From assembly GCA_964522415.1 (NCBI GenBank), contig CAZFVQ010000017.1:4723-68722 (forward strand): 64,000 nt of DNA, read 5' to 3'. Both the position numbers and the translations under genes were made by a program. Position 1 is the first letter of the stretch, and every line of letters starts with the position of its first letter. Under the pieces are notes generated by a model. That model did no database searches, was not told the origin of the DNA, and was given only the letters and a program-made list of their open reading frames with translations. Positions 7,375-36,226 of the stretch are shown in pieces. This DNA is from an uncultured Rikenellaceae bacterium (GTDB lineage: Bacteria; Bacteroidota; Bacteroidia; Bacteroidales; VadinHA17).

Positions 7375-9597
7375 CTAGCGGTTATGGTCTTCAAATTCTG
7401 ACTGGTCAATCATTTTAACTTTTTCCTCAAGGATTTTGATCATATTTTTTGCATTGTCAATCTTTTCCCTGACCTCACGAATCATTGTTTCGGCATTGAT
7501 CGATTTGGTAAAAAATCCGATATTGTTTTCCCAGAGTACTATATCATTTTCCAGTTGCTTGATTTTTATAAAAAATTTATCGCGTTCATTTCTGATTTTT
7601 CTTGATGCATTGGGATTTGTTTTTAGATTTTCCAGTCTGGATCTGAACTTGAGAATACTTTTATCATCATCTCCGATTTTCAGCCTGTCAAATTCCTTGT
7701 TCAGTGTGATACGGTACTTGTTTGTAATCTCATCCTTTCTGTTAAAGGGAACAAATCCTATTTCAGCCCATCTCCGCTGGATGTCCTTAAGTCGTTCGAA
7801 GGCTTCCTCTATGTCCGCCCCTGCATCAAATTTTTCAATTTCCTGGATCAGTGCAAGTTTTGCTTTTAGATTATCTTCATAGGATGTATCCAGATCATTG
7901 AAAAACTCCGCCTTTTTGTCAAAAAAATGGTCACAGGCTTTCCGGAATCTTTTCCAGAGTTTTTCGGATTGCTTTCTGGGGACAGGACCGACATCCTTCC
8001 AGTTTTTTTGAAGTTTTATAAGGGCATCCGTGGTTGCTTTCCAGTCGGTACTGTCCTGCAGTGCCTCTGCCTGAAGACACAAATCAATTTTAAGCTGGAG
8101 ATTGGTCTGTTGTACTTCCTTATTGTCGGCATAGAAATTTCTTTTTTTATCGAAAAAGCTGTCACATGCATCCCGGAATCTCTGATATACCTTATTATTT
8201 TGTTTTTTTGGCGCAAATCCGATTGTTCTCCACATTTTCTGCAGCGCCATTATTTTTTCGGCTTTTTCATCAAATTCCTTGAAATTCGTAATTTCGAGAA
8301 GATTTATTTCCTCCACTTCCTCACACAGGGCTATCTTTGCTTCCAGATTTCTGCGCTGAACATCCTTCTGATTTTCGAAGTATTCATAATGCCGCTTATT
8401 TATCTGAGAAGTTGCCTCCCTGAAGCGTTCCCATATTTCATTTTTCGATTCAATGGGTACAGGACCTATTTCACGCCACTGATTATGATATTCCTGCAGG
8501 ACACGAAAGGCGTTTACCGGATTTGGTTCAAGAAGAAGTTCTTCAGCTTTTTCACACAACAGCACTTTGGTTTCAAGATTCTTTTTCAGATCAAGGTCAC
8601 GTAACTCTTTATTAATTTTGATATAATCATAAAAAATTTCCACGTGATGATGATAATTCTCCCAAAGGTGCTTCACTGCGTTCTGGGGAACCACACCTGT
8701 CGAATGCCACTCATTCTGAAGTGATCTGAATTCATTGAAAGTTTTGTTTATTGATTCCTCACGGTTGACAAGTTCTTTTATCTTGTCGATTATCTCATAT
8801 TTCTTCTTAAGGTTTTCGTATTTTTCGGCTTCCTGTATCCTGTTAAAATCAGTCTTCTTTTGCCTGTATTTATCCAGAAGGTGCTTAACCCTTGCTTCAA
8901 GCGGATCGACCCAGGAACGGTAATCCTCAAGAGTGCCACCGCCTTCCAGGAATTTATTCTTTCTTTCTTCAGCTTCCTGCTTTAGCTTTTTATAAAAAAA
9001 TACCTTTAACCTGTCTACATCATTCCGAATTTCCGACGGCGGCCTGTTATCAATCAGAAGTGCCAGTGTCTCGACAAGATCATTCTTCGAATAACCAGAA
9101 TAATCAACAGGGGGGAGTTCAATATCATCAAGATTTTCGACTTCACTTTCGTGTTCCTCAGTTCCGGATTGATTTTCATGCTCCCTTACTGTTTTCCTTT
9201 TTCTTTTTACAGGAATTCCATCTTCCTTGTCGTGCTGTTCCCCGTCTGCATGCTCACTTTCAGCCTCTACTCCGGCAGTCTGATCATCCACGGCAGGCTC
9301 CCCTTCGGGCCGTTCCCCGTCTGCATGCTCACTTTCAGCCTCTACTCCGGCAGTCTGACCATCCACGGCAGGCTCCCCTTCGGGCCGTTCCCCGTCTGCA
9401 TGCTCACTTTCAGCCTCTACTCCGGCAGTCTGACCATCCACGGCAGGCTCCCCTTCGGGCCGTTCCTTCTGATTATCAATAATTCTGGCTGCCGGAATTA
9501 CTTCACCATTTGTATTTCTCTCAGTTCCGGGGGCATTTTCATTTGCCCCGGATTGTTCATTACGAACAGAGTCATCCGGATCTTTCTCTATTATCAT
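7375..9597 (-). CDS. DUF349 domain-containing protein with an acidic repetitive N-terminus
   Basis: Repeated helical units of the form K..LCE.AE...LQ..W..IG.VP......W.RFR.ACD.FF, typical of DUF349. Confidence 0.85.
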   Translation of the reverse strand: MIIEKDPDDSVRNEQSGANENAPGTERNTNGEVIPAARIIDNQKERPEGEPAVDGQTAGVEAESEHADGERPEGEPAVDGQTAGVEAESEHADGERPEGEPAVDDQTAGVEAESEHADGEQHDKEDGIPVKRKRKTVREHENQSGTEEHESEVENLDDIELPPVDYSGYSKNDLVETLALLIDNRPPSEIRNDVDRLKVFFYKKLKQEAEERKNKFLEGGGTLEDYRSWVDPLEARVKHLLDKYRQKKTDFNRIQEAEKYENLKKKYEIIDKIKELVNREESINKTFNEFRSLQNEWHSTGVVPQNAVKHLWENYHHHVEIFYDYIKINKELRDLDLKKNLETKVLLCEKAEELLLEPNPVNAFRVLQEYHNQWREIGPVPIESKNEIWERFREATSQINKRHYEYFENQKDVQRRNLEAKIALCEEVEEINLLEITNFKEFDEKAEKIMALQKMWRTIGFAPKKQNNKVYQRFRDACDSFFDKKRNFYADNKEVQQTNLQLKIDLCLQAEALQDSTDWKATTDALIKLQKNWKDVGPVPRKQSEKLWKRFRKACDHFFDKKAEFFNDLDTSYEDNLKAKLALIQEIEKFDAGADIEEAFERLKDIQRRWAEIGFVPFNRKDEITNKYRITLNKEFDRLKIGDDDKSILKFRSRLENLKTNPNASRKIRNERDKFFIKIKQLENDIVLWENNIGFFTKSINAETMIREVREKIDNAKNMIKILEEKVKMIDQSEFEDHNR
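9237..9466. repeat. 75-bp tandem repeat, about 3 copies, in-frame in DUF349 (25-aa unit ERPEGEPAVDGQTAGVEAESEHADG)
   Basis: CCCGTCTGCATGCTCACTTTCAGCC... starts at 9241, 9316 and 9391; I see one substitution among the copies. Confidence 0.95.
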
Positions 9598-9896
9598 AGC
9601 AAGTCCTTTCTAATTTCAGGTCTCTATTGGAAATCTTAACCATGTAAGCTATCATGGACATTTAAGCTACGAAAATATTGAAATATTTAATAAACTCAAA
9701 GGCCCGGAGAAATTAATATGACAATCTGTTAATTACATCTGCCATATAATGAGAGTTTAAATATATTTTCACTTTCTTTTTTACAATAGTTCATTAAATT
9801 TTTGAGTCTTTTGATTCCCTTCAAATATATATATTTGATTATGAATGCATTATTAAAACATGAATGATAATAAATTTGCATAAGGAATATTTTGTT

Positions 9897-10076
9897 ATGA
9901 GTACTACAAGAGTATTATTAATCATTGCATTACTGGCACTTGCGGGATTCAGTCTTTACCGGAAAAATTCCAGGCAGAAGCAGAGAGAACAGGAAATTGG
10001 ACAAAAAAAAGACAGCGGGAAATCTTTTTCATCCGAATTTCAAAAGGATGATTATGAACCTTATTCAGGGAATTAA
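9897..10076 (+). CDS. Small single-pass membrane protein, 59 aa, unknown function
   Basis: MSTTRVLLIIALLALAGFSLYRK N-terminal TM followed by a charged tail ending DDYEPYSGN; AT-rich upstream region with TATATTTG. Confidence 0.6.
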   Translation: MSTTRVLLIIALLALAGFSLYRKNSRQKQREQEIGQKKDSGKSFSSEFQKDDYEPYSGN

Positions 10077-10082: not shown

Positions 10083-11372
10083 TCAAAGTCTGTTTTTTGT
10101 GGCAAGATGCCGGAAGGGATTAACCACCTTCTGCAGAAGTCTCAGGCTGTCTGTCAATATCTCGGCTGTTCCCTGCATGTTCTGGGTAAATTCAAGTTCC
10201 CTGCCATAAAGAGTTTTTAGTCCCCCTGGCAGAATTATCTCTATTATATAAGCATCCCCGGCCGGGACAAGTGATTTGGATTCCACAATTCCACGCACCA
10301 TTCCGTATTCGAGATAGGGATATCCGGCAAGCTTGATATTTACGGCCTGGCCCGGTCTGACTTTTCCAGATCTGTACATATTGAGATCAACCCTTCCGAT
10401 ATAATTTCCCGGATCAAGGGGAACGACACTCAAAACAGGTTCATCCCTTGCCACCATCTGATTCTGCTTCCAGAATTTTGTAAAGGTGACAATGCCGTCT
10501 ACAGGAGATATGATCAGATAGGTATTTTCCCAAATTCGTATCTGTGCTTTAAGATTGTTGAGGGATTCTGTCAGAACGGAAAATAATCTTGCTCTTTCTT
10601 CGACCATTTTTATCCTGTAATCCTGCAACTCCTGATTTTTCTGTGCGAGTTCAAGGATTTTGGCTGCATGATCAAGCCTGACGTCCTGGAGTTCAATATT
10701 GATTTTGTTGAAGGTCTGGCGCGAGATATCGAGTTCGCTTTCAGAAAACACTTTATCAGCAAAAAGGGATGAATCCCTGGTGAATTTTTTTGCTTCAATA
10801 CGTTGGTTTTCAAGATAAAATTTTTCTTTTTCTTTTACTCTTAGGATATATTCCTCCAGCCCTTCTATTTCCCGGATAACCGAAGATATCTTATATCCGT
10901 AAAAATCATTTTTAACATAGTTCTCATAATCGGACAGGTTTTTAAGAAAACTACCCCAGTATTCCTGTATCTCACCAAGTTCAGAGAAAGATGGAAGGGA
11001 TCCGGCCGATATCGACCCGGGATCCTGTATCGCCTCAATATTCTCTCTCAGTTTCCTAACCTGATCAATTGATGCAGCTGTTTCCATCACAGCAAGCAAT
11101 CGGCCTGTACGAACCGTCTCACCATCGCTGACATACCAGTTTAAAATACGTCCGCTTATTTTTGACACAAGAGTAACCGGAGGATTCTCCGTGGTAATCT
11201 GCACAGGCGACGGAACCACATTTGGATAACGGATAATCCAGGCAAAAGCCAGGATAATCAGAATAACTGCAGAAATTGCAGCAGTTCCCCATCTGACGAG
11301 TTTCCCCGGCGGATTTGAAATAATCTCACGAACAGCTTCGGAATACAGTATTTCCGTTTTATCTTCTTTCAT
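10083..11372 (-). CDS. HlyD-family type I secretion membrane-fusion (adaptor) protein
   Basis: Cytoplasmic N-terminus (EIISNPPGKLVRWG), one TM, biotinyl-lipoyl half motifs (SKISGRI; ISPVDGIV), long coiled coil, GQAVNIKLAGYPYLEYG; directly downstream of the PCAT. Confidence 0.93.
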   Translation of the reverse strand: MKEDKTEILYSEAVREIISNPPGKLVRWGTAAISAVILIILAFAWIIRYPNVVPSPVQITTENPPVTLVSKISGRILNWYVSDGETVRTGRLLAVMETAASIDQVRKLRENIEAIQDPGSISAGSLPSFSELGEIQEYWGSFLKNLSDYENYVKNDFYGYKISSVIREIEGLEEYILRVKEKEKFYLENQRIEAKKFTRDSSLFADKVFSESELDISRQTFNKINIELQDVRLDHAAKILELAQKNQELQDYRIKMVEERARLFSVLTESLNNLKAQIRIWENTYLIISPVDGIVTFTKFWKQNQMVARDEPVLSVVPLDPGNYIGRVDLNMYRSGKVRPGQAVNIKLAGYPYLEYGMVRGIVESKSLVPAGDAYIIEIILPGGLKTLYGRELEFTQNMQGTAEILTDSLRLLQKVVNPFRHLATKNRL

Positions 11373-11381
11373 TCTGTCATA

Positions 11382-13568
11382 TTAATTGCCAAGTTCAAGC
11401 TGGTTTTTAATAAGATTAAAATAAAATCCTTTCTGTTCAATAAGCGAATCATGGTTTCCTGTTTCCACTATCCGCCCTTTATCCATAACAACAATTTTAT
11501 CCGCATTTCTCACAGTGCTGAGTCTGTGTGCAACAATAACCACAGTTTTTTTCCTGAAATATCCTGCAAGATTTTCAACAATGGCTTTTTCATTGTTGGC
11601 ATCAAGAGAGTTAGTCGCTTCATCGAATATCAGTATATCCGGATCTTTATACAGAACACGGGCAATAAGAATTCTTTGTTTCTGTCCTTCACTCAGGCCA
11701 TGCCCGTTTGCCCCGATTTTTGTGTTATAACCCAAGGGGAGTGATTCAATGAATTCCCTGATGTTTGCCATTTCAACTGCCTTGAATAGTCTTTCCTCAT
11801 CAATTTCTGAATTACCAGGAGAAATATTTGATGCGATGGATTCCGGAAAAATAAAACCATCCTGCATAACGGCTCCGGTTTTTTCTCTCCAGATTCTGAG
11901 ACTGAGGTTTGTAAGCCTGGTGTCTCCTACAAGGATTTCTCCCATGACAGGCTGGTAGAATCCAAGGATCAGCTTGAGCAGGGTTGTTTTGCCGCTGCCG
12001 CTTGTTCCCACAACAGCAGTTGTTTTATTTTCCCCGATGACGAGATTTATATCCTGTAAAACAAAAGGTGAATGAGGCCCTTCATACTGAAATGACAAAT
12101 TATTAATTATCAAATCTTTCCTATCAGGAAGCCGTGAAATTTTTGAATCAGGATCTGCTTCCTCTTCTTCCATCCCGTGAACTTCGGCAAGCCTGTTCAG
12201 GCTCATTCCGGCATCCTGTGTTGTACTGAAAAATCCTATGATCTGATTCAGGGGAACATTGAGCTGACCTATGATGAACTGGACAGCGAGCATCATACCA
12301 AGTGTCATATTCCCTTTCAGAACTGCAGTTGCTGAAACGACTGTGATCAGAAGATTTGTTATCTCATTGAGAAAAGTGCCTCCGGCAGTCTGATACTGAA
12401 GCAATCCCAGTCCCTTCGATTTCAGGGCAAACAGCGAAGCCTGCAGATTTTCCCAGTCCCAGCGTTTCAGCGATTCGCTCTGGGTAAGCTTTATTTCCTG
12501 CATCCCATTCACAATATTTATAAGCTTGCTGTTGGCTACTGACATCTCACGGAACCTCTCATGATCAAGTCTTGCCCTTGATTTCATAAATACCGACACC
12601 CAAAGCACATACAATACCGATCCGGTAAGAAAAAGAGCCAGTATTTTCAGATTGTAGACTGCAAGAACGATACTGAACACGATGATATTGAAAAATGAAA
12701 ACAATATGCTCAGGCTGGTTGAGGTCAGAAAATTCTCTATTCTGTTGTTATCATCAATTCTCTGAAGAATATCACCTGTAAGTTTAGTATCGAAGAATGC
12801 TATGGGCAGGGACATCAGTTTCCTGAGAAAGCCGGAAATTATTGATACATTGACACGGGCTCCGATATGAAGAAGCAGCCATCCTCTGATGAATTCCACT
12901 GACATACGGCCGATTACCAGAGCGAGTTGGGCAAAGAGTATCAGATATATGAAGCCCAGATCGCTGTTATTGAGACCGGTATCAATTATTGCCTGCGTAA
13001 GGAAGGGAATAATAAGCTGAATTACACTGCCAATAAGCAATCCCAGCATCAGCTGGCCGAAATATTTTTTATACAGCTTAAAATATCTTGCAAGGAATCT
13101 GAAGCCGTTCACGGGTTCAGATTCATTTTCTTTTTCCAGCAGTGCCGGGGTGGGTTCCAGGATCAGCACCAGCCCGGCCGGTTTGCCATCTTCCAGAGTA
13201 CTTGCCCATTTTTTTATAAATTCATCCTTGTTCAGGGAAAGGAGGCCTTCAGCAGGATCAGCAATCAGAATTTTATTTTTCCTTATCCTGTAAACAACAA
13301 CAAAGTGTTTCTGCCTCCAGTGTACTATACAGGGCATTGGAACCTTGTCAAACAACATATCGAAGGGGATTTTAACCCCGATAGTCCTGAATCCCAGGTT
13401 ACCTGCAGCCTCTGACAAGCCAAGAAAAGAAACTCCTTCCCGCGTTATATAACATTTTCGACGGATTGATTCAAGATTGAAGTTTTTTTTATAATAGGAT
13501 GCTACCATTTTAAGGCAGGCAGGACCACAATCCATTGCATCTGGCTGTCTTACAAAAGGAAATGACAT
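11382..13568 (-). CDS. Peptidase C39-containing ABC transporter (PCAT; SunT/LagD/ComA-like)
   Basis: N-terminal QPDAMDCGPACL (catalytic Cys) and HWRQKHFVVVY (catalytic His), ABC membrane domain, Walker A GTSGSGKTT, LSEGQKQR, IFDEATNSLD. Confidence 0.95.
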   Translation of the reverse strand: MSFPFVRQPDAMDCGPACLKMVASYYKKNFNLESIRRKCYITREGVSFLGLSEAAGNLGFRTIGVKIPFDMLFDKVPMPCIVHWRQKHFVVVYRIRKNKILIADPAEGLLSLNKDEFIKKWASTLEDGKPAGLVLILEPTPALLEKENESEPVNGFRFLARYFKLYKKYFGQLMLGLLIGSVIQLIIPFLTQAIIDTGLNNSDLGFIYLILFAQLALVIGRMSVEFIRGWLLLHIGARVNVSIISGFLRKLMSLPIAFFDTKLTGDILQRIDDNNRIENFLTSTSLSILFSFFNIIVFSIVLAVYNLKILALFLTGSVLYVLWVSVFMKSRARLDHERFREMSVANSKLINIVNGMQEIKLTQSESLKRWDWENLQASLFALKSKGLGLLQYQTAGGTFLNEITNLLITVVSATAVLKGNMTLGMMLAVQFIIGQLNVPLNQIIGFFSTTQDAGMSLNRLAEVHGMEEEEADPDSKISRLPDRKDLIINNLSFQYEGPHSPFVLQDINLVIGENKTTAVVGTSGSGKTTLLKLILGFYQPVMGEILVGDTRLTNLSLRIWREKTGAVMQDGFIFPESIASNISPGNSEIDEERLFKAVEMANIREFIESLPLGYNTKIGANGHGLSEGQKQRILIARVLYKDPDILIFDEATNSLDANNEKAIVENLAGYFRKKTVVIVAHRLSTVRNADKIVVMDKGRIVETGNHDSLIEQKGFYFNLIKNQLELGN

Positions 13569-13639
13569 TCTTGCCGGGAAAAGATATTATAGGTTTAAAT
13601 TATTTAATATTTACTCTGAAAGTCATCCGGTAAATTATT

Positions 13640-13692
13640 GTGCAATGTAATTATTTTAATAATTTTTTTACGCAAACTAAATAGTATATTTG
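13640..13692. promoter_or_regulatory. Divergent promoter region for the PCAT (-) and the ECF sigma (+)
   Basis: TATATTTG at 13685-13692 matches the Bacteroidetes -7 element for the sigma gene. The minus strand has TTTG...TACATTGC toward the PCAT, with a slightly long spacing (23 nt). Confidence 0.45.
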
Positions 13693-13716
13693 TTTTTCAA
13701 TTCAGATTGACCAGAA

Positions 13717-14289
13717 TTGTTTAAAAGGATAACAGATTCAAAGATCATTGCAGGCATTAAGGCTCAGGATGATAATATTCTTGAATGGATTTATGATAAT
13801 TATTACCAAACCGTAGAAAATCACGTAATTAAAAATAGCGGTTCACCTGATGATGTGCCTGATATTTTTCAGGATACCATCATTATTCTCTACAAGCAAA
13901 TCTCGGCTGATTCTCTCAGTTTATCCTCCGATCTCAAAGCTTACTTTTTTGGAATAGCACGTAATCTGTGGAATGCCAGACTCAGACAAAAGAACAGGAT
14001 GACCGGAATCGGGTCCCGCTTCGATATGGCAGATGAATCAGGCTCAGAAGAGAGCGAGGACCTGATTTTTGAAAGAATCATGAGCAGGGCATTCTATAAA
14101 TTAAAACCGGATTGTCAGACCATTCTGACCTTATTTTCTGACGGTTGCACTTACCAGGAGATTACCGGGAAGATGCAGCTGAAAAACGAAGTATATGCAA
14201 GGAGAAAGAAATACTTGTGTAAGGAGGCACTCCTTGAACTTATCAAGACCGATGCCGAATATCAGGAATATTTACGCTTCCTGAAATAG
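13717..14289 (+). CDS. ECF-type (sigma-70 group 4) RNA polymerase sigma factor
   Basis: 190 aa; region 2 (DDVPDIFQDTIIILY...LKAYFFGIARNLW) and region 4 HTH (KLKPDCQTILTLF...TYQEITGKM...YARRKKYLCK); TTG start. Confidence 0.9.
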   Translation: MFKRITDSKIIAGIKAQDDNILEWIYDNYYQTVENHVIKNSGSPDDVPDIFQDTIIILYKQISADSLSLSSDLKAYFFGIARNLWNARLRQKNRMTGIGSRFDMADESGSEESEDLIFERIMSRAFYKLKPDCQTILTLFSDGCTYQEITGKMQLKNEVYARRKKYLCKEALLELIKTDAEYQEYLRFLK

Positions 14290-17200
14290 AAAATCAAAGC
14301 GGTCACGGGCAGTGAAAGCAGAAGGAATACTATTGCCATTAATCTGACAGGCGGATATATCGGTGAATTTTCTCCGTAAACAATCAGAGTTGCCCAGAAA
14401 TATGGATGAGATTTAAGCTGTGTGGCATTTTTAAGATAAGCAGTCCGCGATTTTTTCAGTGATTTGCTTTTAGTATAACCTTTTTTAAGATTTTCATAGA
14501 ATCTGCTTACTATTTCAGTTCCTGATTTATCCTCAATTTCCCACATAGACATTACCACAGACCGGCTTCCGGAATAAAGAAATCCCCTTGCAAGGCTAAG
14601 AATGCCTTCACCAGATGACAAAATACCTGTTCCTGTATTACAGGAACTCAGCACCACCATTTTAGCCCTGAGCGGCATTCCGTAAACTTCCGACGTATAC
14701 AGCAGTCCGTCATCCGGACTGTCATTCATCTGTGAAAATATCATTGCTGAATTCATGGGGTGCTGATCGTTAAGCAATGTATGCATTGCCAGATGAATAA
14801 TATTGTAGTTCAGTGCCTCGTTTTTAAAAACTGATTCTTTAGCCTTTTCATTCAGAAAAAGATTACCACGGGAAATTGAAGCGACATATTCCGCTTCCTG
14901 GCGTGCATATGGCAGGTCATAGAGCAAACCCCTTTCCTGCTGGTTTTGAGGAAAGAGCGAATCAAGCTTTATATCAGTTCCGTAAAAGGGAGCAAAAGCT
15001 GCCAGTCTGATCTTTCCCGGAATATTTCTGGAACCAATCTCCTTCATTAATGTTGCCGAATATGCATATGAAATATCAAAATCATTCATCAGGTAATCCA
15101 GTTTCCTGTAAAGGATACCTTCTCCTTCATATTTTGAGGAGAGTATCGTTTCGAAAGGAAGATATGACAGATAATTGTCGGGAGATATCAGCAGATTTCG
15201 GGATATAAAATACTTTTGCACCGGTTCGACAAGCATTTTATAAAGTGTTGTACCGGCCTCCTGATATTTGATAAATGCATTCCTTGCATCCTTGACGAGT
15301 GCCGGATTTGAAAGCAAATCCCTGAATTCACCGAGAGTTTTAAACAACACTGAATCAATCCTGTACGATACCAGTTCCTTGTACTTTTTGTTGACAACAA
15401 AAATATAAAGCAGGGAATCCGCAACAATATAACTGATGTAATTATTTTTTCTTCCGACTATTGACGGTATTTCTGTCATTAAAGGGGCGACTGTATTGTA
15501 CTTGAGTGCGAAATATTCCGGATAGTATTTCTCAAAAGTCAGTATCAGTGAGTCACGTGCCCTGATCGATACCAGTATCTTTTCATTCCACCCGGCAAGA
15601 AGCAGTTTGTTTGGTTTTGCCTTTTCTTTTTCCAGTGAGATCTTCGAATTCAGCATTCCTATTTCCCGTTGAAGGGATTGTTCATAATCTGCAATTTCCG
15701 GAGGAATGTGCAACTGTATGGCATTCAGTTCACGTGTCGTTGCCAGCAAACCTGCAACCTTGCTTTTTTCTGCAATCTGGAAGGTTTTTTCAAGATATGA
15801 ACGATCTGAGCTTAGCCTGTAACATAATTCAGAATCCCTTATTGCCATCAGGTACGATTTTCTGTAATGATCCCCCAGTACTATCCTGCTCTCCTCCTCA
15901 CTGATATTCAATCTTATCTTGTCAACGGCATCAATGATATGATGCGAAGTGGCAGCTGCCGCTTTGAGTATTCCCATATCCTGTGTTTCCGAAAAAATAT
16001 CCGTCAGTATCTCATATTTTGAACGGAGTATCCTTACATATCGCCTGTCGGCCTGTACCGAATCAATTTCAGGATTCGCAAGAGAATCGAATGATTGTCC
16101 TGTCTGCGATCCATAAAAAAGAAGTTCCTGAATTTTTGCAAGAGCCTCCCTGCTCTGACCGTTGTAATGCAGGGCCCTGGCATATCCTTCATAGACCGGA
16201 TCCCGAAGATTGGCATCCTGCGGATGTCGTGAAAGATAATCATTGCAAAGGGAGAAATACTTTATTGCAGCTGCGGCATCATTCCTGTAATTAAGCAAAT
16301 ACGCAGCATAGTTCTTTAATGCCTCTGTATAATATCTGGAATCCGTACCATAATAGCTGCCCGATCTTTTCAGCAATTCAGTCAGCAGCGATTCGCCCTT
16401 CCTTATATTACCTGCATTTGCCTGGGCAATTGCATAAGTATGTATCATGTTGAAGGAATGAATGGAATTATCCTTAACCGCAAGTTCAATTCCCTTACTG
16501 AAATATTCTTCCTCCCTTTCAGTCATACCAAGATATCCGTAATTTATTGCCATGCTGTTGATCAGTGTAATATAATTCTGATCCATTTCCATATGATTCT
16601 TTTCCCAGACCGATTCAGCCTGCTCAAAATAGATCCTTGCCTTTGCATAATCTCCCATTCTTGCATACCCTGCTCCAATACTGCTGTATAAATCAGAGAG
16701 ATCTCTTTCCTGAAAAGCTTTCAGCATTCCCAGTGCCCTGTCCGTGTATTCAATGAAATTTTTATAATCATTGTTTAAAACCGATGCGCCGATAAGTGTA
16801 GTATATGCGGAAGCAATTTCAGGCCGGATTTCATCATAAAATTTCCCGGATATATCTATATACCTGGTCAGATAATCCCGGACTCCCGAATAATTACCAA
16901 GATGATTATGTGCCACACCAAGATTAAAAAGAGCTTTAAAATAACGGTCGTCTTCAATATTCAAGCTGTCTTTCAGGCGTATCGATTCTCTCAGATGAAT
17001 AACGGCATTATCGTATCTTGAAGAAAGCAGATTACTTACCCCGGTGTAATAGAGTAATTCAGCTTCAGTCTGCAAGTCGGACTGATTTACGATAATTAAT
17101 TTTTCAAGACTGTCGGCAAAAGACAAGAGGCCCGCGATGTTTCCTCCCGAACTGAAATTACGGATTCTCTTACTGATTTTATCAAGGGAATCTGAATTTT

Positions 17201-17351
17201 CAGGCTTGCTCTGACGGGTCATTAAAAAAATATTGTTACGAGAGGAAAAATCCGGAAAACTGACACAATATTCTGCCCGGATCAAACACAGGGCTGCTGC
17301 TATAATTAAAAACCTGAATCTTAAATAGTGTTTAACTGACTTCCGGTACAC
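14262..17351 (-). CDS. TPR-CHAT protein (caspase-like CHAT peptidase) with N-terminal signal-like segment and C-terminal TM anchor
   Basis: Multiple TPR-like helix pairs; CHAT motifs LLISPDNYLSYLPFE, LPYARQEAE, IIHLAMH (His), VVLSSCNTG (Cys), GEGILSLARGF.YSGSRSVVMSMWEIED, HPYFWA; hydrophobic C-terminus followed by RKRKYS. Confidence 0.93.
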   Translation of the reverse strand: MYRKSVKHYLRFRFLIIAAALCLIRAEYCVSFPDFSSRNNIFLMTRQSKPENSDSLDKISKRIRNFSSGGNIAGLLSFADSLEKLIIVNQSDLQTEAELLYYTGVSNLLSSRYDNAVIHLRESIRLKDSLNIEDDRYFKALFNLGVAHNHLGNYSGVRDYLTRYIDISGKFYDEIRPEIASAYTTLIGASVLNNDYKNFIEYTDRALGMLKAFQERDLSDLYSSIGAGYARMGDYAKARIYFEQAESVWEKNHMEMDQNYITLINSMAINYGYLGMTEREEEYFSKGIELAVKDNSIHSFNMIHTYAIAQANAGNIRKGESLLTELLKRSGSYYGTDSRYYTEALKNYAAYLLNYRNDAAAAIKYFSLCNDYLSRHPQDANLRDPVYEGYARALHYNGQSREALAKIQELLFYGSQTGQSFDSLANPEIDSVQADRRYVRILRSKYEILTDIFSETQDMGILKAAAATSHHIIDAVDKIRLNISEEESRIVLGDHYRKSYLMAIRDSELCYRLSSDRSYLEKTFQIAEKSKVAGLLATTRELNAIQLHIPPEIADYEQSLQREIGMLNSKISLEKEKAKPNKLLLAGWNEKILVSIRARDSLILTFEKYYPEYFALKYNTVAPLMTEIPSIVGRKNNYISYIVADSLLYIFVVNKKYKELVSYRIDSVLFKTLGEFRDLLSNPALVKDARNAFIKYQEAGTTLYKMLVEPVQKYFISRNLLISPDNYLSYLPFETILSSKYEGEGILYRKLDYLMNDFDISYAYSATLMKEIGSRNIPGKIRLAAFAPFYGTDIKLDSLFPQNQQERGLLYDLPYARQEAEYVASISRGNLFLNEKAKESVFKNEALNYNIIHLAMHTLLNDQHPMNSAMIFSQMNDSPDDGLLYTSEVYGMPLRAKMVVLSSCNTGTGILSSGEGILSLARGFLYSGSRSVVMSMWEIEDKSGTEIVSRFYENLKKGYTKSKSLKKSRTAYLKNATQLKSHPYFWATLIVYGENSPIYPPVRLMAIVFLLLSLPVTALIFYFRKRKYS

Positions 17352-17594
17352 CTTAAATCTTAGTTTATAATTCTTATATATCCGATTTTCAAAAATACCT
17401 TCTATTTTTGAACCTTTAACAAATATTGATCACAAACCCGAATTCACAAAGTACTGTATAAGTGCACTTTAAAAAAAAGTGCAATTTTTTCTTATATTTT
17501 CGTGTCACAAAAGAGGCTTAAATGACATGTATTAGCAGAACTATCAATAATTAATTTCAGAAAATTAAGTGGTAACAAATAAAACTAAAAAAAA

Positions 17595-17738
17595 ATGAAA
17601 AACCTGAATTCTTCCAAGACGAGAGACATTTTTGCCGATTATGAACTTACAATTGATGAGATGTTCAATATAAGAGGTGGCGATAAAGTGCGTAGTGAAC
17701 CCATCATACTGCCTCCCTCCCCACCCATTTTGATTTGA
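17595..17738 (+). CDS. Double-glycine-leader precursor peptide, 47 aa (not in the ORF track)
   Basis: Hand translation: MKNLNSSKTRDIFADYELTIDEMFNIRGG|DKVRSEPIILPPSPPILI*. ELTIDEMFNIRGG fits the ELSxxELxxIxGG leader consensus cleaved by C39 peptidases; an A-rich translation-initiation region precedes the ATG; a PCAT is encoded 4 kb away. Confidence 0.85.
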   Translation: MKNLNSSKTRDIFADYELTIDEMFNIRGGDKVRSEPIILPPSPPILI

Positions 17739-17912
17739 GCTGCAAATATATTATTATTAATATCAGGTACAGGCTTTTTTATACTGTTGTTTTAATTATC
17801 CGGCAAGCGGGATAAAGAATTCCTGCCCCTGGAAGGATATATATATAATAAAGTGGCTCTATAAAAACAGCCTGGCATGCTGATTGATGAGTATTATAAT
17901 AAACATATATCC

Positions 17913-18662
17913 ATGAAAACTATTGATTTTTCTTATTTCATTGAGCGATTTCTTGCGGGAGAAATGAATGAAGCTGAAGAAGAGTGGTTTCAAAATGAGC
18001 TTGGCAGGAATGAGAAACTCCGCCACGAAATTACTCTGAGACAGCTCACAAACACAACCCTTAAGGATCATGATGTCCTGCAGCTCAGGAATAAGCTGAC
18101 TGCAATTGCATCAAAGAAAGCTGAACCAAAACCATCCAAAAACGGACGCAGGCACAAGGATCTTACCAGGGCAGCAGTATTTGCAGGACTGGTTCTCTTC
18201 GGAACGCTTGCTTTTCTCAACAACAGAACAATGTCCACCGATGAGATCTTTGATCATTATTACAAGTTTTATGACATTACAACTCCCCTGCGATCGGTAA
18301 ATGATGCCGGCAATACTGATTATCTGACAGCCATTGAATACTTCAATGTAAAGGATTATTACAATGCAGCGCATTATTTCAGCAAGGTTCTGAGTAGTGA
18401 TCCCAGATTTATTGAATCGGTTCTGATGACAGGAGTATCAAAATTCGAGGAAGAAAAATATTCCGAGGCAAAATCATCATTTACAAAAGTTATGGACAAC
18501 AGGGATAATCTTTTCTTTGAAGATGCTCAGTGGTACCTCTCATTATGTTATCTGAAGACATCCGAAAAGGATAAGGCTGTTAATACATTGAAAGCTGTAA
18601 AGGAATCGGGCAGTGTTTACAGCAGGAATGCAGGGAAAATACTTAAAAAGATAAGGTTGTAA
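17913..18662 (+). CDS. Single-pass membrane TPR protein, putative anti-sigma factor
   Basis: N-terminal helical domain (IERFLAGEMNEAEEEWFQNEL) like the sigma-binding N-terminus of Bacteroidetes anti-sigmas, a TM (AAVFAGLVLFGTLAFLN), then TPRs ending AQWYLSLCYLK...A...L. Start chosen at ATG 17913. Confidence 0.75.
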   Translation: MKTIDFSYFIERFLAGEMNEAEEEWFQNELGRNEKLRHEITLRQLTNTTLKDHDVLQLRNKLTAIASKKAEPKPSKNGRRHKDLTRAAVFAGLVLFGTLAFLNNRTMSTDEIFDHYYKFYDITTPLRSVNDAGNTDYLTAIEYFNVKDYYNAAHYFSKVLSSDPRFIESVLMTGVSKFEEEKYSEAKSSFTKVMDNRDNLFFEDAQWYLSLCYLKTSEKDKAVNTLKAVKESGSVYSRNAGKILKKIRL

Positions 18663-18720
18663 ACAGCCTGGCAGGCCCTGCAGAGGGGTGATATCACCAT
18701 TAATTCCAAAATAGAGACAA

Positions 18721-18758
18721 ATAAAAATGACCGCTTTTTTTCGGGCTGTCATTTTTAT
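18721..18758. terminator. Probable bidirectional intrinsic terminator
   Basis: Perfect 11-bp inverted repeat ATAAAAATGAC/GTCATTTTTAT between convergent genes. Confidence 0.6.
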
Positions 18759-29611: not shown

Positions 29612-30706
29612 ATGAACAAACGGTTTAAATTAATAATAACTATCGTACTGATTCTGTTGGGTACCTTTGTTATTCTGTATCCCAAACTAAAGCCTGTTTT
29701 CGCAGCAAGGCAGAGTTCCCCTGAATCTGGTAATCCGGGTGGCCCCGGAACGGGACCGGCTCGTAATCTCCTTAACGTGAGTGGTTTTATTATTTCTCCC
29801 ACAACCATGGACGAGTTGATTAACAGTATCGGAACCTTAAGGCCGGACGAAGAGGTCGATTTGGCATTTGAAACATCAGGAAAAATTGTCGGACTACATT
29901 TCAATGAAGGCAGCAGGGTTAAAAAGGGAGATCTTCTGGCCGAAATAAATGACAAGCCTCTTCAGGCGCAGCTGCAGAAACTGCAGGCCCAGATCAAACT
30001 TGTTGAGGAAAAAGAATTCCGTCAGCGCAGTCTGCTTGACAAGGACGCGATAAGTCAGGAAAGCTATGATCAGATCGTCACTGAACTTCAGAGTGTTCAG
30101 GCGGATATCAACCTCATCCTTGCAAGGATTGCTGAAACAGAATTACGTGCACCTTTCGACGGAATTATTGGCCTGAGATATCTCAGTGAAGGAAGTTATG
30201 CAACTCCCTCCACAAAAATTGCCCGGCTTATTAAAATGAGTCCTATCAAACTGGAATTTTCAATTCCCGAGAGATATGCCGATGATGTCAAAATCGGTTT
30301 CCCGGTCGTGTTTTCGGTTGATAATAAAAACTATGATGCACGTGTTTATGCAGTTGATCCAAAGATTGACCTTGTTACAAGAACCATAGTTCTAAGAGCC
30401 CTGTATCCCAACTCCAGGGAAGAGCTTAAATCAGGAAGATATGCTCAGGTAACGCTGAAACTGAACCAGATAGAGAATGCTATATCCATTCCAAGTGAAG
30501 CCCTGATACCGGAAATGGAAGGTGAAATGGTTTATGTTTTCAGAAAAGACAGAGCTGAAAGCATAAAAGTCAAAACGGGATTAAGAACAGAATCCCATAT
30601 ACAGATTGCGGAAGGATTAAATTTCGGGGATACTTTGATAATCACAGGTATTCTGCAACTTCGGCAGAGCCTGCCTGTTGTATTGGACACGCTGATTTCC
30701 AATTAA
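29612..30706 (+). CDS. RND efflux periplasmic adaptor subunit
   Basis: SGKIVGLHFNEGSRVKKGDLL, APFDGIIG, YAVDPKID..TRT. Confidence 0.93.
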   Translation: MNKRFKLIITIVLILLGTFVILYPKLKPVFAARQSSPESGNPGGPGTGPARNLLNVSGFIISPTTMDELINSIGTLRPDEEVDLAFETSGKIVGLHFNEGSRVKKGDLLAEINDKPLQAQLQKLQAQIKLVEEKEFRQRSLLDKDAISQESYDQIVTELQSVQADINLILARIAETELRAPFDGIIGLRYLSEGSYATPSTKIARLIKMSPIKLEFSIPERYADDVKIGFPVVFSVDNKNYDARVYAVDPKIDLVTRTIVLRALYPNSREELKSGRYAQVTLKLNQIENAISIPSEALIPEMEGEMVYVFRKDRAESIKVKTGLRTESHIQIAEGLNFGDTLIITGILQLRQSLPVVLDTLISN

Positions 30707-30723
30707 TTACTTAAAATCAAACC

Positions 30724-33700: not shown

Positions 33701-33801
33701 TGGTTCCGGCCATATATACCTATATCTCAAGTGAAATAGCTGTCACTGCCGATACAGGCAAAACTGAAATTAAAACTGAAATTAATGAAACGACCATATA
33801 A
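30724..33801 (+). CDS. RND efflux permease (AcrB/HAE family)
   Basis: 1025 aa; GIVVDDAIIVMEN, KNGILIVEFA, RFRPILMT; 12-TM RND layout. Confidence 0.95.
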   Translation: MSLSSVSIERPVLTSVFAIVILLFGIVGFTFLGVREFPSVDPAIITVMTSYPGANSDVIETQITEPLEQNINGIPGVRSLTSVSSQGSSRITVEFELSVDLETAANDVRDKVSQAMRLLPRDCDPPTVSKADADANPILFLTVESSKRSLLQLSEIAELTLKEQLQTISGVSAVSIFGQKRYAMRLWIDPAKLAGYGLTPMDVRNTINRENVELPSGSIEGTNTQLSIRTMGLMTTPQEFNDLILKQSGDNIVRFRDVGRAELGPEDIRGILKRDGVPMVQIAMIPQPGSNHIDIVDEVYTRLEYIQKDLPDDVKVNVNYDNTEYIRSSIKEVQHTIYIAFFLVVIIIYVFLRNWKATLIPILVIPISLVGSFFIMYLAGFTINVLTLLALVLAIGIVVDDAIIVMENIFVKVESGMEPVEAGLKGSQEIFFAIIATTITLISVFFPIVFLEGITGRLFREFSVVMAGTVAISAFLALTLTPMISTKLLRREKKPSWFYRKTERMFEGLNKVYQNGLDSFLKRRQYAIVILVAALGIIVLLWLTLPAEMAPLEDRSQITVNMSATEGATYEFLLAYADDVAQLVEEEVPERLSYTSMVRGGSFGNLRIMLEKPNDRERTQQQIAEDLAAELRKKTRARSFVIQQSTFGSRRSGQPVQYVLQATSIDKLREILPEFMAKVMDSDILEMADVNLKFTKPELRIHIDREKATNLGVSTQNIGQTLQLALSGQRFGYFFMNGKQYQILGELAREDRNKPLDLKSLYVRTDNQEMIQFDNLVSLSEETAPPQLYRYNRFVAATVSSGLTKGRTISEGLAEMDRIAAEVLDDSFRTALAGDSKDFRESSSSLMFAFSLALILIFLVLAAQFESFKDPIIVMGTVPLALFGALLFMWYFNITMNIFSQIGIIMLIGLVSKNGILIVEFANQRKRAGMKKQEAIRYAAAARFRPILMTSLATIFGIAPLALGLGEGAQSRVAMGIAVVGGMIFATFLTLFVVPAIYTYISSEIAVTADTGKTEIKTEINETTI

Positions 33802-33840
33802 AGAATTTACCCACACGGGCATGACTTTAGATTCATGGGA

Positions 33841-33906
33841 GTTCCCCGGCAAACAGGGACAGGCTCCCCGTTTAACCGGGGCTGGTTCCCGATAAACCGG
33901 GGCAAG
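33841..33906. repeat. Three tandem 22-bp REP-like mini-palindromes between the RND permease and TolC genes
   Basis: GTTCCCCGGCAAACAGGGACAG / GCTCCCCGTTTAACCGGGGCTG / GTTCCCGATAAACCGGGGCAAG; each is a CCCC...GGGG hairpin. Confidence 0.65.
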
Positions 33907-33937
33907 TATCCTACCATTAAAATTAAATTATAGACAA

Positions 33938-36166: not shown

Positions 36167-36226
36167 TTTCCAGTTTGGAATAATTTTGAATATTCTTATG
36201 TTTGTATAAGGATATAATTTAAGAAT

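What the first reader, a model, noticed from the sequence alone, without database searches (positions are those of the whole stretch)
10083..18662. Candidate peptide-signalling circuit: PCAT/HlyD exporter, GG-leader peptide, exported TPR-CHAT protease, anti-sigma and ECF sigma
Seen: six genes arranged <-HlyD <-PCAT | sigma-> <-TPR-CHAT | peptide-> TM-TPR->, with two divergent promoter regions. The PCAT catalytic Cys/His and the CHAT His/Cys are intact, and the cassette contains no modifying enzyme. Established: C39 PCATs cleave after GG leaders and export peptides; TPR domains bind peptide pheromones in Gram-positive RRNPP regulators; a TPR-CHAT protease (Csx29) cleaves a sigma-binding protein (Csx30) in type III-E CRISPR; ECF sigmas are commonly released by proteolysis of membrane anti-sigmas. 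Inference: the exported Pro-rich peptide binds the CHAT TPRs, the activated caspase-like protease clips the extracytoplasmic TPR domain of the anti-sigma, and the sigma is released, possibly with positive feedback. This would be quorum-sensing-like or damage signalling in a Gram-negative Bacteroidetes. I cannot say whether it is already published.
Basis: partly seen in the sequence, partly recalled or inferred. Interest (0 to 1): 0.92.

Follow-up and report, generated by a model that had tools for sequence, protein, structure and literature searches.

The report
Peptide-linked ECF sigma / TPR-CHAT signalling module
This uncultured Bacteroidales genome carries a conserved gene set (an exported mini-peptide, a periplasmic caspase-like protease, an alternative sigma factor and its membrane anti-sigma factor) that looks like a self-inducing peptide signalling circuit of a kind not yet described in this phylum, though its biochemistry is still untested.

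Summary
Only the TM-TPR start changes, probably to 17913.

Comparative genomics shows a real module:
- The TPR-CHAT gene sits next to homologues of this ECF sigma and this TM-TPR protein in 26 of 27 well-flanked distant metagenomic loci, in five gene orders.
- A GG-leader mini-peptide gene lies divergently upstream of CHAT in 74 of 75 clade loci and 36 of 45 distant loci.
- The TM-TPR protein is very probably the anti-sigma factor. It overlaps the sigma gene in other clades. Its N-terminal model matches only solved anti-sigma domains, but those matches are individually not significant.
- A fixed-spacing promoter-like motif (window 17503-17531) precedes the peptide gene. Its distant-clade counterpart also precedes the sigma/anti-sigma operon, so the peptide gene appears to belong to the sigma's autoregulated regulon.
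- PCAT and HlyD are linked only in some lineages.

An almost invariant Arg-Ser in the anti-sigma's periplasmic linker is a concrete candidate cleavage site.

The closest known system is the fused TPR-CHAT anti-sigma DdvA of Myxococcus. I found no published description of this module.

The parts
10083..11372 (-). HlyD-family periplasmic adaptor (429 aa, one N-terminal TM segment). Accessory exporter subunit.
   Evidence: Pfam HlyD_3 and NCBIfam type_I_hlyD, below cut-off. TM segment 23-55. Syntenic in all clade loci. Linked to the module in only a few distant loci: L140 and L155.
11382..13568 (-). PCAT: C39 peptidase fused to an ABC exporter (728 aa). Predicted to remove the GG leader and export the peptide.
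   Evidence: Pfam C39 E 1.9e-37, ABC_membrane, ABC_tran. Invariant C14/H88/D104 in 49 sequences. It is the most conserved gene of the cassette, at 70-94% identity.
13592..13612 (-). Conserved block next to the PCAT start. On the minus strand it contains a Bacteroidetes housekeeping-type -7 box (TAnnTTTA/G).
   Evidence: Alignment of 78 intergenic regions, consensus GTAAAGATATTTATATTTT. The promoter assignment rests on the published Bacteroidetes sigma-A consensus (my own knowledge) and is an inference.
13679..13692 (+). Conserved GGAAATAnTATATTTG block upstream of the sigma gene. TATATTTG matches the housekeeping -7 box (TAnnTTTG), so sigma appears to be constitutively transcribed here.
   Evidence: consensus; coordinates. 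No ECF-type motif lies upstream of sigma in this clade.
13717..14289 (+). ECF-type sigma factor (190 aa, sigma-2 plus sigma-4). The TTG start is conserved.
   Evidence: TIGR02937 above its cut-off. Profile hits RpoE, SigW, SigH and SigL structures over the full length. Next to CHAT in 26 of 27 well-flanked distant loci.
14262..17351 (-). TPR-CHAT caspase-like protease (1029 aa). It has an N-terminal signal-like segment and a C-terminal TM anchor with a basic RKRKYS tail, so its body is periplasmic.
   Evidence: Pfam CHAT E 2.3e-54 and TPR_12. Invariant H853/H857/C904. Hydrophobic segments 12-33 and 996-1025. The orthologue family occurs only in Bacteroidales/Bacteroidota.
17503..17531 (+). Bipartite promoter-like motif TGTCACAAA-N12-GACATGTA (TGTCAC-N17-CATGTA), about 64 nt upstream of the peptide ATG. 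Candidate target of the cassette's ECF sigma.
   Evidence: The only copy in 64 kb, with 0 expected. Same 29-nt spacing with a non-conserved spacer in 69 clade loci, always upstream of the peptide gene. The distant-clade counterpart GGT(T/A)ACCTTTT-N10-11-GnAT precedes both the peptide genes and the sigma operons.
17595..17738 (+). GG-leader precursor peptide (47 aa). Leader MKNLNSSKTRDIFADYELTIDEMFNIRGG; predicted mature 18-mer DKVRSEPIILPPSPPILI.
   Evidence: Present in 74 of 75 clade loci. Core consensus is (D/E)x(D/E)P(I/V)(I/L)(K/L)PxxPP(I/V)(K/R)I. Tandem copies occur in some genomes. GG-leader genes hold the same position in 36 of 45 distant loci.
17913..18662 (+). Putative anti-sigma factor (249 aa from M13; the ORF is open from 17877). 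It has a cytoplasmic ASD-like three-helix domain, one TM segment and a periplasmic 3xTPR domain. The juxtamembrane loop holds the invariant R139-S140 (261-aa numbering).
   Evidence: Start. Model pLDDT 76 overall and above 90 in the TPRs. The N-terminal model (pLDDT 85) matches only RsiW, RslA, MucA and RseA chains. Homologues overlap the sigma gene in other clades. Arg-Ser (or Arg-Thr) is present in 55 of 57 distant homologues.

Best explanation
The locus encodes a self-contained peptide-to-ECF-sigma signalling circuit. The 47-aa precursor is cut after its GG leader by the C39 domain of the PCAT and exported with the HlyD adaptor. This yields a short, unmodified, proline-rich peptide of about 13-18 residues that reaches the periplasm of the producer and its neighbours. 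Two inner-membrane-anchored proteins expose TPR domains there: the TPR-CHAT protease and the ASD-TM-TPR anti-sigma, which holds the ECF sigma on its cytoplasmic domain. Peptide binding to one or both TPR modules lets the CHAT His/Cys protease act as site-1 protease on the anti-sigma's periplasmic linker; the candidate site is after the invariant Arg139. Intramembrane proteolysis then frees the sigma. The sigma transcribes from the TGTCAC-N17-CATGTA promoter, producing more peptide (positive feedback) and more anti-sigma (reset). In most relatives it also drives a soluble histidine-kinase-like protein that this window has lost.

Shown here: the gene module and its conservation, the topologies, the intact catalytic residues, and the shared promoter motif.

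Strongly inferred: the sigma/anti-sigma pairing, and the peptide gene's membership of the sigma regulon.

Inferred only: peptide binding, CHAT cleavage of the anti-sigma, and the population-level (quorum) role.
For: Module conservation. CHAT, sigma and TM-TPR homologues are adjacent in 26 of 27 distant loci with at least 2.5 kb of flank, in five gene orders and with unrelated neighbours. GG-leader genes lie divergently upstream of CHAT in 74 of 75 clade loci and 36 of 45 distant loci.

Anti-sigma assignment. The sigma and TM-TPR genes overlap as one operon in many clades. The N-terminal 60 residues are the most conserved part of the protein. All nine Foldseek matches of its model are ECF anti-sigma domains (RsiW, RslA, MucA, RseA). 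There is a single TM segment with basic residues on the N-terminal side.

Regulon. A fixed-spacing bipartite motif with a variable spacer lies upstream of the peptide gene in 69 clade loci and occurs once in the 64-kb window. The related motif in distant clades lies upstream of peptide genes in 48 loci and directly upstream of sigma in 27 of 58 loci, which is ECF-style autoregulation.

Periplasmic protease. There is a signal-like N-terminus and a C-terminal TM anchor, and the His/Cys dyad is invariant.

Receptor-ligand signal. Peptide cores are clade-specific. Their divergence correlates only with the two periplasmic TPR regions (rho 0.20, Mantel p 0.001 each), not with sigma, the ASD, PCAT or PorE. 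The anti-sigma TPR domain resembles peptide-binding TPRs and the protease adaptor NlpI.

Candidate cleavage site. Arg-Ser is invariant in a low-confidence loop.

Precedent. Periplasmic TPR-CHAT is fused to an anti-sigma in DdvA, where CHAT was proposed as site-1 protease (PMC11506125).
Against: There are no experimental data, and every genome is an uncultured MAG or a metagenome contig. The ASD fold matches have E-values of 3-9, so each is individually non-significant. Pfam zf-HC2 reaches only E 0.5 on one distant homologue. In the window clade, sigma has a housekeeping-type promoter and is not next to the anti-sigma. PCAT/HlyD are absent from most distant loci and no outer-membrane partner is in the cassette, so the export route is uncertain. 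The covariation is weak, may be inflated by the faster evolution of the TPR regions, and does not separate the two TPR candidates. The invariant Arg-Ser could be structural. CHAT could equally process or destroy the peptide. The regulon beyond the locus could not be scanned.
Confidence: 0.5

Rival explanations
1. The anti-sigma's own TPR domain is the peptide receptor, and a conventional route releases the sigma. CHAT is not the site-1 protease. Instead it matures, trims or degrades the peptide (quenching or turnover), or cleaves another periplasmic substrate.
For: Peptide-core divergence correlates as well with the anti-sigma's periplasmic TPR as with the CHAT TPR. The anti-sigma TPR domain has the 3-repeat fold of TPRs that bind short C-terminal peptides. 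Many cores end in acidic or hydrophobic C-termini that would suit a TPR clamp.
Against: CHAT is as tightly linked to sigma and anti-sigma as they are to each other (26 of 27 loci), which suggests a core signalling role. The related system DdvA places TPR-CHAT directly in the anti-sigma. The anti-sigma linker has an invariant Arg-Ser.
Confidence: 0.2
2. This is an envelope-damage or phage sensor of the DdvA type. CHAT senses a foreign or damage-associated protein, and the small peptide is a securin-like pseudo-substrate or inhibitor that keeps CHAT quiet (homeostatic negative feedback) or serves as an alarm to kin.
For: DdvA-DdvS controls defence islands and its signal is thought to be a periplasmic protein. 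Separase-type TPR-CHAT proteases are controlled by pseudo-substrates. The peptide and the anti-sigma sit in one sigma-dependent transcription unit here.
Against: No defence genes are nearby, and sigma, CHAT, TM-TPR and the peptide give no PADLOC hit. The locus is a syntenic core-genome region, not an island. Peptide cores do not generally mimic the Arg-Ser linker.
Confidence: 0.13
3. This is a class II bacteriocin-type locus. The GG-leader peptide is an antimicrobial exported by PCAT/HlyD, and the TM-TPR and/or CHAT proteins give immunity or regulation.
For: A GG leader with PCAT and HlyD is the classic bacteriocin export set. Bacteroidetes do make GG-leader toxins, the bacteroidetocins (PMC6671954). 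Tandem peptide copies occur.
Against: The cores are only about 9-20 residues, lack Cys, are acidic and proline-rich rather than amphipathic or cationic, and are conserved within clades. The locus is single-copy, syntenic and vertically inherited. PCAT/HlyD are usually not linked, whereas sigma, anti-sigma and CHAT always are. The bacteroidetocin loci described contain a 5-TM protein and a thiol oxidoreductase, which are absent here.
Confidence: 0.07
4. The genes are neighbours by descent only and do not work together.
For: Within the window's clade the unrelated flanking genes are just as syntenic.
Against: The module persists outside that clade with different flanks and five gene orders. A shared promoter motif links the peptide and sigma genes.
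Confidence: 0.03

Closest known systems
[quoted passage not shown]
   Same: An ECF sigma is held by a single-pass anti-sigma. A periplasmic TPR-CHAT module with a His/Cys dyad is proposed to act as site-1 protease on the juxtamembrane linker, followed by RseP-type cleavage.
   Different: Here the system is split into two proteins: ASD-TM-3xTPR, and signal-TPR-CHAT-TM. The ASD lacks the zinc ligands. A dedicated GG-leader peptide gene belongs to the module. There is no CBASS/CRISPR regulon nearby. The phylum is Bacteroidota, whereas that paper found DdvA-like proteins only in Myxococcota and one Comamonas species. There is no sequence-level match to solved CHAT structures.
Craspase: type III-E Cas7-11 with Csx29 (TPR-CHAT), Csx30 and a CASP sigma
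   Same: A TPR-CHAT protease cleaves a sigma-sequestering protein to release an ECF-like sigma.
   Different: Craspase is cytoplasmic and RNA-guided, and there is no CRISPR here. NCBIfam Csx29 scores 15.7 bits against a cut-off of 300, and the III-E sigma model scores 17.9 against 100.
ComC/ComAB/ComDE and BlpC/BlpAB/BlpHR of streptococci (GG-leader pheromones)
   Same: A small unmodified GG-leader peptide is processed and exported by a PCAT. Its gene is induced by the pathway it triggers (autoinduction).
   Different: Those peptides are sensed by a membrane histidine kinase in Gram-positive bacteria. Here the read-out is an ECF sigma/anti-sigma pair with a protease in a diderm periplasm. The histidine-kinase-like gene found in relatives has no sensor or TM domain and is absent from the window.
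RRNPP regulators (Rap, NprR, PlcR, PrgX)
   Same: TPR domains bind short linear signalling peptides.
   Different: RRNPP receptors are cytoplasmic, fused to HTH or phosphatase domains, and need peptide re-import. Here the TPRs are periplasmic and there is no HTH.
RseA/DegS/RseP sigma-E pathway of E. coli
   Same: A single-pass class I anti-sigma is removed by site-1 then site-2 proteolysis after a periplasmic peptide signal (C-termini of outer-membrane proteins). The ASD fold matches RseA and MucA, and the sigma profile best matches RpoE.
   Different: There the site-1 protease is a PDZ serine protease that senses stress peptides. Here it would be a caspase-like CHAT protease with TPRs sensing a dedicated, genetically encoded peptide.

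Membership tests
PCAT (peptidase-containing ABC transporter) | N-terminal C39 peptidase with a catalytic Cys/His(/Asp), a six-helix ABC membrane domain and a nucleotide-binding domain in one chain | tested here: met
   Pfam C39, ABC_membrane and ABC_tran. C14, H88 and D104 are invariant. It is below the equivalog cut-offs of TIGR03796 and TIGR01193, so it is a family-level member only.
PCAT (peptidase-containing ABC transporter) | A cognate substrate with a double-glycine leader is encoded nearby | tested here: met
   The peptide gene at 17595-17738 has ...ELTIDEMFNIRGG|. Cleavage itself was not tested.
Double-glycine (GG) leader peptides | A leader of about 15-30 aa ending in GG, with hydrophobic residues at -4, -7 and -12 and an acidic residue at -8/-9 | tested here: met
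   The leader consensus FxxFxLSxEEMxxVRGG is conserved in 74 clade loci and in distant loci.
Double-glycine (GG) leader peptides | A match to a curated precursor family model | tested here: not met
   No Pfam or NCBIfam hit, even at E 10.
ECF (group 4) sigma factors | Only sigma-2 and sigma-4 regions, about 190 aa, scoring above the family model cut-off | tested here: met
   TIGR02937 46.0 bits against a cut-off of 42.9. Full-length profile matches to RpoE, SigH, SigW and SigL structures.
ECF (group 4) sigma factors | Autoregulation from its own promoter and co-transcription with the anti-sigma | tested here: inconclusive
   Met in 27 of 58 distant loci, which have the motif directly upstream of a sigma-anti-sigma operon. 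Not met in the window clade, where sigma has a TAnnTTTG-type promoter and is separated from the anti-sigma.
Class I anti-sigma factors (ASD) | An N-terminal helical anti-sigma domain fold | tested here: inconclusive
   The AF2 model of residues 13-92 has pLDDT 85. All nine Foldseek PDB matches are ASDs bound to ECF sigmas, but with E-values of 3-9 and TM-scores (query-normalised) of 0.37-0.54.
Class I anti-sigma factors (ASD) | Zinc-binding HxxxCxxC motif (ZAS subclass) | tested here: not met
   There are no Cys or His at these positions. zf-HC2 reaches only E 0.5 on one distant homologue.
Class I anti-sigma factors (ASD) | Physical binding to the partner sigma | not testable with these tools
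TPR-CHAT proteases (clan CD) | A CHAT domain with a conserved His/Cys dyad, preceded by TPR repeats | tested here: met
   PF12770 E 2.3e-54 and TPR_12. H853/H857 and C904 are invariant.
DdvA-type TPR-CHAT anti-sigma | ASD, TM segment and periplasmic TPR-CHAT in one polypeptide | tested here: not met
   The ASD-TM and TPR-CHAT parts lie on separate proteins in all 160 loci examined.
Type III-E craspase (Csx29) | Association with Cas7-11/gRAMP and a match to the Csx29 model | tested here: not met
   NF041237 scores 15.7 bits against a cut-off of 300. No cas genes are in the window or the loci, and there is no PADLOC hit.
RRNPP peptide receptors | A cytoplasmic TPR receptor fused to an HTH or phosphatase domain | tested here: not met
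   Both TPR proteins are membrane-anchored with periplasmic TPRs and have no HTH.

The most novel reading that the evidence does not exclude
Bacteroidota have a genuine peptide quorum-sensing system of a new architecture. A GG-leader autoinducer is read in the periplasm by a tail-anchored caspase-like TPR-CHAT protease. That protease acts as a ligand-gated site-1 protease on a TPR-bearing anti-sigma, cutting after an invariant Arg, and so switches on an ECF sigma that amplifies the peptide. If true, it would be the first peptide pheromone pathway wired to an ECF sigma, and the first defined ligand and substrate for a periplasmic CHAT protease.
Probability: 0.33. Interest if true: 0.9.

Novelty: new variant of a known kind. 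Interest (0 to 1): 0.78.

Why it matters
Peptide pheromones are regarded as a Gram-positive speciality, and dedicated cell-cell signalling in Bacteroidota is poorly understood even though the phylum dominates gut, sediment and marine habitats.

This module offers a compact, testable candidate. It has a defined peptide, a defined promoter, a defined sigma/anti-sigma pair and a protease with a predicted cleavage site.

It would also give bacterial CHAT (caspase/separase-like) proteases a natural ligand and substrate. For the only studied periplasmic example, DdvA, the signal is unknown.

The clade-specific peptides and the matching promoters also form a natural set of potentially orthogonal signal/sigma/promoter parts for Bacteroidota.

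Tried and rejected
- Curated models for the peptide: Pfam and NCBIfam gave nothing, even at E 10.
- Sequence search of the CHAT profile against PDB returned only generic TPR hits and no DdvA or Csx29.
- The profile of the anti-sigma N-terminus against PDB sequences gave no meaningful hit. Pfam on the N-termini gave nothing beyond a zf-HC2 match at E 0.5.
- Whole-protein Foldseek of the TM-TPR model was dominated by the TPR domain, so the N-terminal domain was modelled separately.
- Word-based homology searches with TM-TPR and sigma returned only within-clade orthologues. Distant members came instead from the neighbourhood of a 29%-identical CHAT and from a metagenome scan seeded with it.
- P0039, a generic TPR-CHAT protein, has no sigma neighbour, so the association is specific to this CHAT subfamily and not to all TPR-CHAT proteins.
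- The idea that the peptide mimics the Arg-Ser cleavage loop was rejected. Only the window and a few relatives have Arg-Ser or Lys-Ser in the core.
- The extra promoter-regex hits downstream of TM-TPR in five loci are most likely coding sequence of the histidine-kinase-like gene, spelling its SHEVRTHMN motif.
- Rfam found no known RNA in 9.5-19.5 kb. The generic sigma-70 and terminator scan was uninformative.
- Seven literature searches found no description of this module. The supplements of the ECF classification paper are not held. A review notes CHAT-domain neighbours for group ECF54, without an anti-sigma factor.

Full report
OBSERVATION

The six ORFs are present as described.
- Pfam and NCBIfam identify a HlyD-family adaptor (10083-11372, -) and a PCAT with C39, ABC-membrane and ABC-ATPase domains (11382-13568, -).
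- They also identify a sigma-70 family protein that passes the ECF model TIGR02937 (13717-14289, +; TTG start).
- The 1029-aa TPR-CHAT protein (14262-17351, -) matches Pfam CHAT at E 2.3e-54.
- The TM-TPR protein (17877-18662, +) has weak TPR hits.
- The 47-aa ORF (17595-17738, +) reads MKNLNSSKTRDIFADYELTIDEMFNIRGG|DKVRSEPIILPPSPPILI. It matches no curated model.
- The catalytic residues are intact and invariant among orthologues: CHAT H853/H857/C904 and C39 C14/H88/D104.
- Orthologues of the TM-TPR protein begin at MKTIDFSYF, so its real start is probably 17913.

IS THE ASSOCIATION MORE THAN SYNTENY?

The CHAT protein has a sharply bounded orthologue family (50-100% identity, then below 30%), all from Bacteroidales MAGs.

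A scan of one genome per GTDB species found 379 relatives. The best 80 loci are all uncultured Bacteroidales and carry all six genes in the same order. However, the housekeeping flanks (QueE-like, PorE-like OmpA, DUF349, YidC) are just as conserved. That clade alone therefore shows only vertical inheritance.

The decisive evidence comes from outside the clade.
- A 29%-identical CHAT (P0038, locus L081) has different flanks. It still has a divergent 47-aa GG-leader gene upstream, and a convergent operon of a homologous sigma plus a 503-aa protein whose C-terminus is homologous to the window's TM-TPR protein.
- A metagenome scan seeded with this protein gave 80 further loci.
- Of the 27 loci with at least 2.5 kb on both sides of CHAT, 26 carry both the sigma and the TM-TPR homologue, in five different gene orders. 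Only 3 carry a PCAT.
- GG-leader ORFs lie divergently upstream of CHAT in 36 of 45 loci with enough upstream sequence, and in 74 of 75 loci of the window's clade.

The core module is therefore peptide + TPR-CHAT + sigma + TM-TPR. PCAT and HlyD are facultative neighbours.

THE TM-TPR PROTEIN AS ANTI-SIGMA

- In many clades its gene overlaps the end of the sigma gene, as is typical of sigma/anti-sigma operons.
- Its N-terminal 60 residues are the most conserved part of the protein and carry the pattern FIERYxAGEMNEAExxWFxKEL. From my own knowledge, this resembles the first helices of anti-sigma domains without the zinc ligands.
- The AF2 model has three or four N-terminal helices, one TM helix (about 96-115) preceded by basic residues, and a confident 3xTPR periplasmic domain.
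- A separate model of the N-terminal domain (pLDDT 85) gave only nine Foldseek matches among 350,542 PDB chains. All nine are cytoplasmic anti-sigma domains bound to ECF sigmas: RsiW, RslA, MucA and RseA. Their E-values are 3-9. Each match is non-significant on its own, but as a set they are telling.
- The sigma profile best matches RpoE, whose partner is RseA.
- An exhaustive HMM search found 638 representative clusters carrying this N-terminal module. They fall into two architectures: about 250 aa with one copy, and about 500 aa with four tandem copies.

TOPOLOGY OF CHAT

CHAT has a signal-like N-terminus and a C-terminal TM helix followed by a conserved basic tail (RKRKYS). This holds in the window protein, its orthologues and P0038. 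The TPR-CHAT body should therefore be periplasmic and tethered to the inner membrane, facing the anti-sigma's TPR domain.

REGULATORY WIRING

Phylogenetic footprinting of the CHAT|peptide intergenic region revealed an invariant bipartite motif, TGTCACAAA-N12-(G/T)ACATGTA.
- It can be read as TGTCAC-N17-CATGTA and has a non-conserved spacer.
- It is present in 69 clade loci, always upstream of the peptide gene.
- In the window it lies at 17503-17531 and is the only copy in 64 kb, with 0 expected.

The sigma and PCAT genes instead carry blocks that match the Bacteroidetes housekeeping -7 box TAnnTTTG. That consensus comes from my own knowledge.

In the distant clades the equivalent motif is GGT(T/A)ACCTTTT-N10-11-(G/C)G(A/T)AT, which shares the GTnAC core.
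- It lies upstream of the first peptide gene in 48 loci.
- With one mismatch per half-site allowed, it also lies immediately upstream of the sigma gene in 27 of 58 loci. These are the loci where sigma and anti-sigma form an operon.

Autoregulation is the hallmark of ECF sigmas. I therefore infer that this motif is the sigma's promoter and that the peptide precursor gene belongs to its regulon.

In the window clade the unit under this promoter is peptide -> anti-sigma. In 59 of 70 clade loci it also includes a 275-aa soluble HisKA/HATPase protein. That gene recurs in several distant loci but is missing from the window and its closest relatives L001-L005. A stem-loop with compensatory changes follows the peptide stop codon in most loci and has decayed in the window.

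THE PEPTIDE

- The leaders are conserved throughout.
- The cores are short (median 18 aa in the distant set; 13-18 in the window clade) and lack Cys.
- They are clade-specific. The window clade has (D/E)x(D/E)P(I/V)(I/L)(K/L)PxxPP(I/V)(K/R)I. Other clades have ...SRDKDIFDFEEE, KSEDIYVDLN, YGIPTPIIITE or DGEGEGDLILIPD.
- Some genomes carry two to five tandem copies.
- Within the window clade, pairwise divergence of the core correlates with the CHAT TPR region (rho 0.198, Mantel p 0.001) and with the anti-sigma periplasmic TPR (rho 0.199, p 0.001).
- It does not correlate with sigma, the ASD, PCAT or the neighbouring PorE gene.
- The effect is small, and the faster evolution of the TPR regions may inflate it.
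- The anti-sigma TPR domain superposes on YbgF, on TPRs that bind short peptides (Sti1, CHIP, SycD/PcrH) and on NlpI, a protease adaptor.

CANDIDATE CLEAVAGE SITE

The anti-sigma linker between the TM helix and the TPR domain contains an Arg-Ser pair.
- Arg139 is invariant and Ser140 is conserved in at least 90% of 37 clade sequences.
- Arg-Ser or Arg-Thr is present in 55 of 57 distant homologues.
- It lies in a low-confidence loop of the model.

From my own knowledge, several clan CD proteases (separase, metacaspases, gingipain R) cut after Arg. This makes R139 a concrete but unproven site-1 candidate.

MECHANISM AND RIVALS

The best-supported reading is an autoinducing peptide-to-ECF-sigma circuit in which the TPR-CHAT protease couples peptide sensing to removal of the anti-sigma.
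- Shown: module conservation, topology, intact active sites and the shared promoter motif.
- Strongly inferred: the sigma/anti-sigma pairing, and the peptide gene's place in the regulon.
- Inferred only: which TPR binds the peptide, that CHAT cleaves the anti-sigma, and that the system measures population density.

The rivals are as follows.
- CHAT acts on the peptide, and the anti-sigma is the direct receptor.
- The system is a DdvA-like damage or phage sensor, with the peptide as inhibitor or alarm. Against this, there are no defence neighbours and no PADLOC hits.
- The locus makes a bacteriocin. This fits poorly with very short, non-cationic, clade-conserved cores, a syntenic core-genome position and an inconstant PCAT. 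It also differs from the bacteroidetocin loci.

COMPARISON WITH KNOWN SYSTEMS

The nearest precedent is DdvA-DdvS of Myxococcus xanthus (PMC11506125). In DdvA a zinc ASD, a TM helix and a periplasmic TPR-CHAT are one protein, CHAT autoproteolysis is proposed as site-1 cleavage, and the signal is unknown. That paper found DdvA-like proteins only in Myxococcota and one Comamonas species.

The present module differs in four ways. It is a split version, it occurs in Bacteroidota, its ASD has no zinc ligands, and it carries a dedicated exported peptide.

It is not a craspase, because the Csx29 and III-E sigma models score far below their cut-offs and there are no cas genes. It is not RRNPP, because its TPRs are periplasmic and it has no HTH. 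It shares peptide biogenesis and autoinduction logic with ComC/BlpC systems, but not their receptor type.

A review mentions CHAT-domain neighbours for ECF group ECF54, without anti-sigma factors. I could not check the underlying supplement. Seven full-text searches found no description of this module.

VERDICT

I class it as a new variant of ECF sigma/anti-sigma signalling: a split DdvA-like TPR-CHAT system coupled to a GG-leader peptide. It is widespread in uncultured Bacteroidota and apparently undescribed. Interest 0.78.

Noticed in passing
L007-L080 (e.g. L008 about 7800-8640, -); also L140, L142, L143, L146, L149-L151, L155. Absent from window 18663-18754.: A 270-280-aa soluble HisKA + HATPase_c protein with no TM or sensor domain is encoded directly downstream of the TM-TPR anti-sigma gene in 59 of 70 clade loci and in several distant loci. 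The window and L001-L005 have lost it. It may be an output arm of the circuit.
   Followed up: partly
window 18291-18296 (TM-TPR R139-S140, 261-aa numbering): An Arg-Ser pair sits in the periplasmic juxtamembrane loop of the anti-sigma. Arg is invariant and Ser at least 90% conserved in 37 clade sequences, and Arg-Ser/Thr occurs in 55 of 57 distant homologues. The loop has low model confidence. It is a candidate site-1 cleavage site.
   Followed up: partly
L081 12492-14003 (-), and proteins P0307, P0320 and others: The roughly 500-aa anti-sigma homologues carry four tandem copies of the ASD-like N-terminal module ahead of the TM helix. This architecture raises the question of how many sigma molecules one anti-sigma can hold.
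   Followed up: no
window 13717 (TTG start) and 14262-14289: The sigma gene uses a TTG start codon that is conserved across the clade. The sigma and CHAT genes overlap tail-to-tail by 28 bp, also conserved. This could allow low sigma translation and convergent-transcription interference.
   Followed up: no
L055 about 8650-10000; L125 8370-9629; L104 8510-8983; L051: The GG-leader peptide gene is amplified in tandem in some genomes: five identical copies in L055, four in L125, three in L104 and two in L051.
   Followed up: partly
Clade loci, 12-20 nt after the peptide stop codon. Window 17739-17790 has only a remnant (CAGGTACAGGCTTTTTT at 17764-17780).: A stem-loop (CCTGnn...nnCAGG, with compensatory changes between loci) follows the peptide gene in most loci. 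It may be an attenuator or RNA-stabilising hairpin between the peptide and anti-sigma genes. Its 5' arm is lost in the window.
   Followed up: partly
Window about 17532-17594 and the equivalent 5'UTRs in the loci: The roughly 60-nt leader between the promoter motif and the peptide ATG is itself conserved within clades (for example AATTACCCTGAATTAGTATCAATACTTA). There is no Rfam match, and its function is unknown.
   Followed up: no
window 9230-9466: A near-perfect 75-bp x 3.2 tandem repeat lies inside the DUF349 protein gene (7375-9597, -). It encodes 25-aa acidic repeats (ERPEGEPAVDGQTAGVEAESEHADG).
   Followed up: no
window 29612-35260 and 36200-47600: An RND efflux operon (adaptor, 1025-aa pump, TolC-like OEP at 33938-35260) lies next to a low-GC (0.35-0.37) polysaccharide biosynthesis cluster (Wzy-like, GT4, GT1, flippase). 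The OEP is the only TolC-type gene seen in the window that could in principle serve the PCAT/HlyD pair.
   Followed up: no
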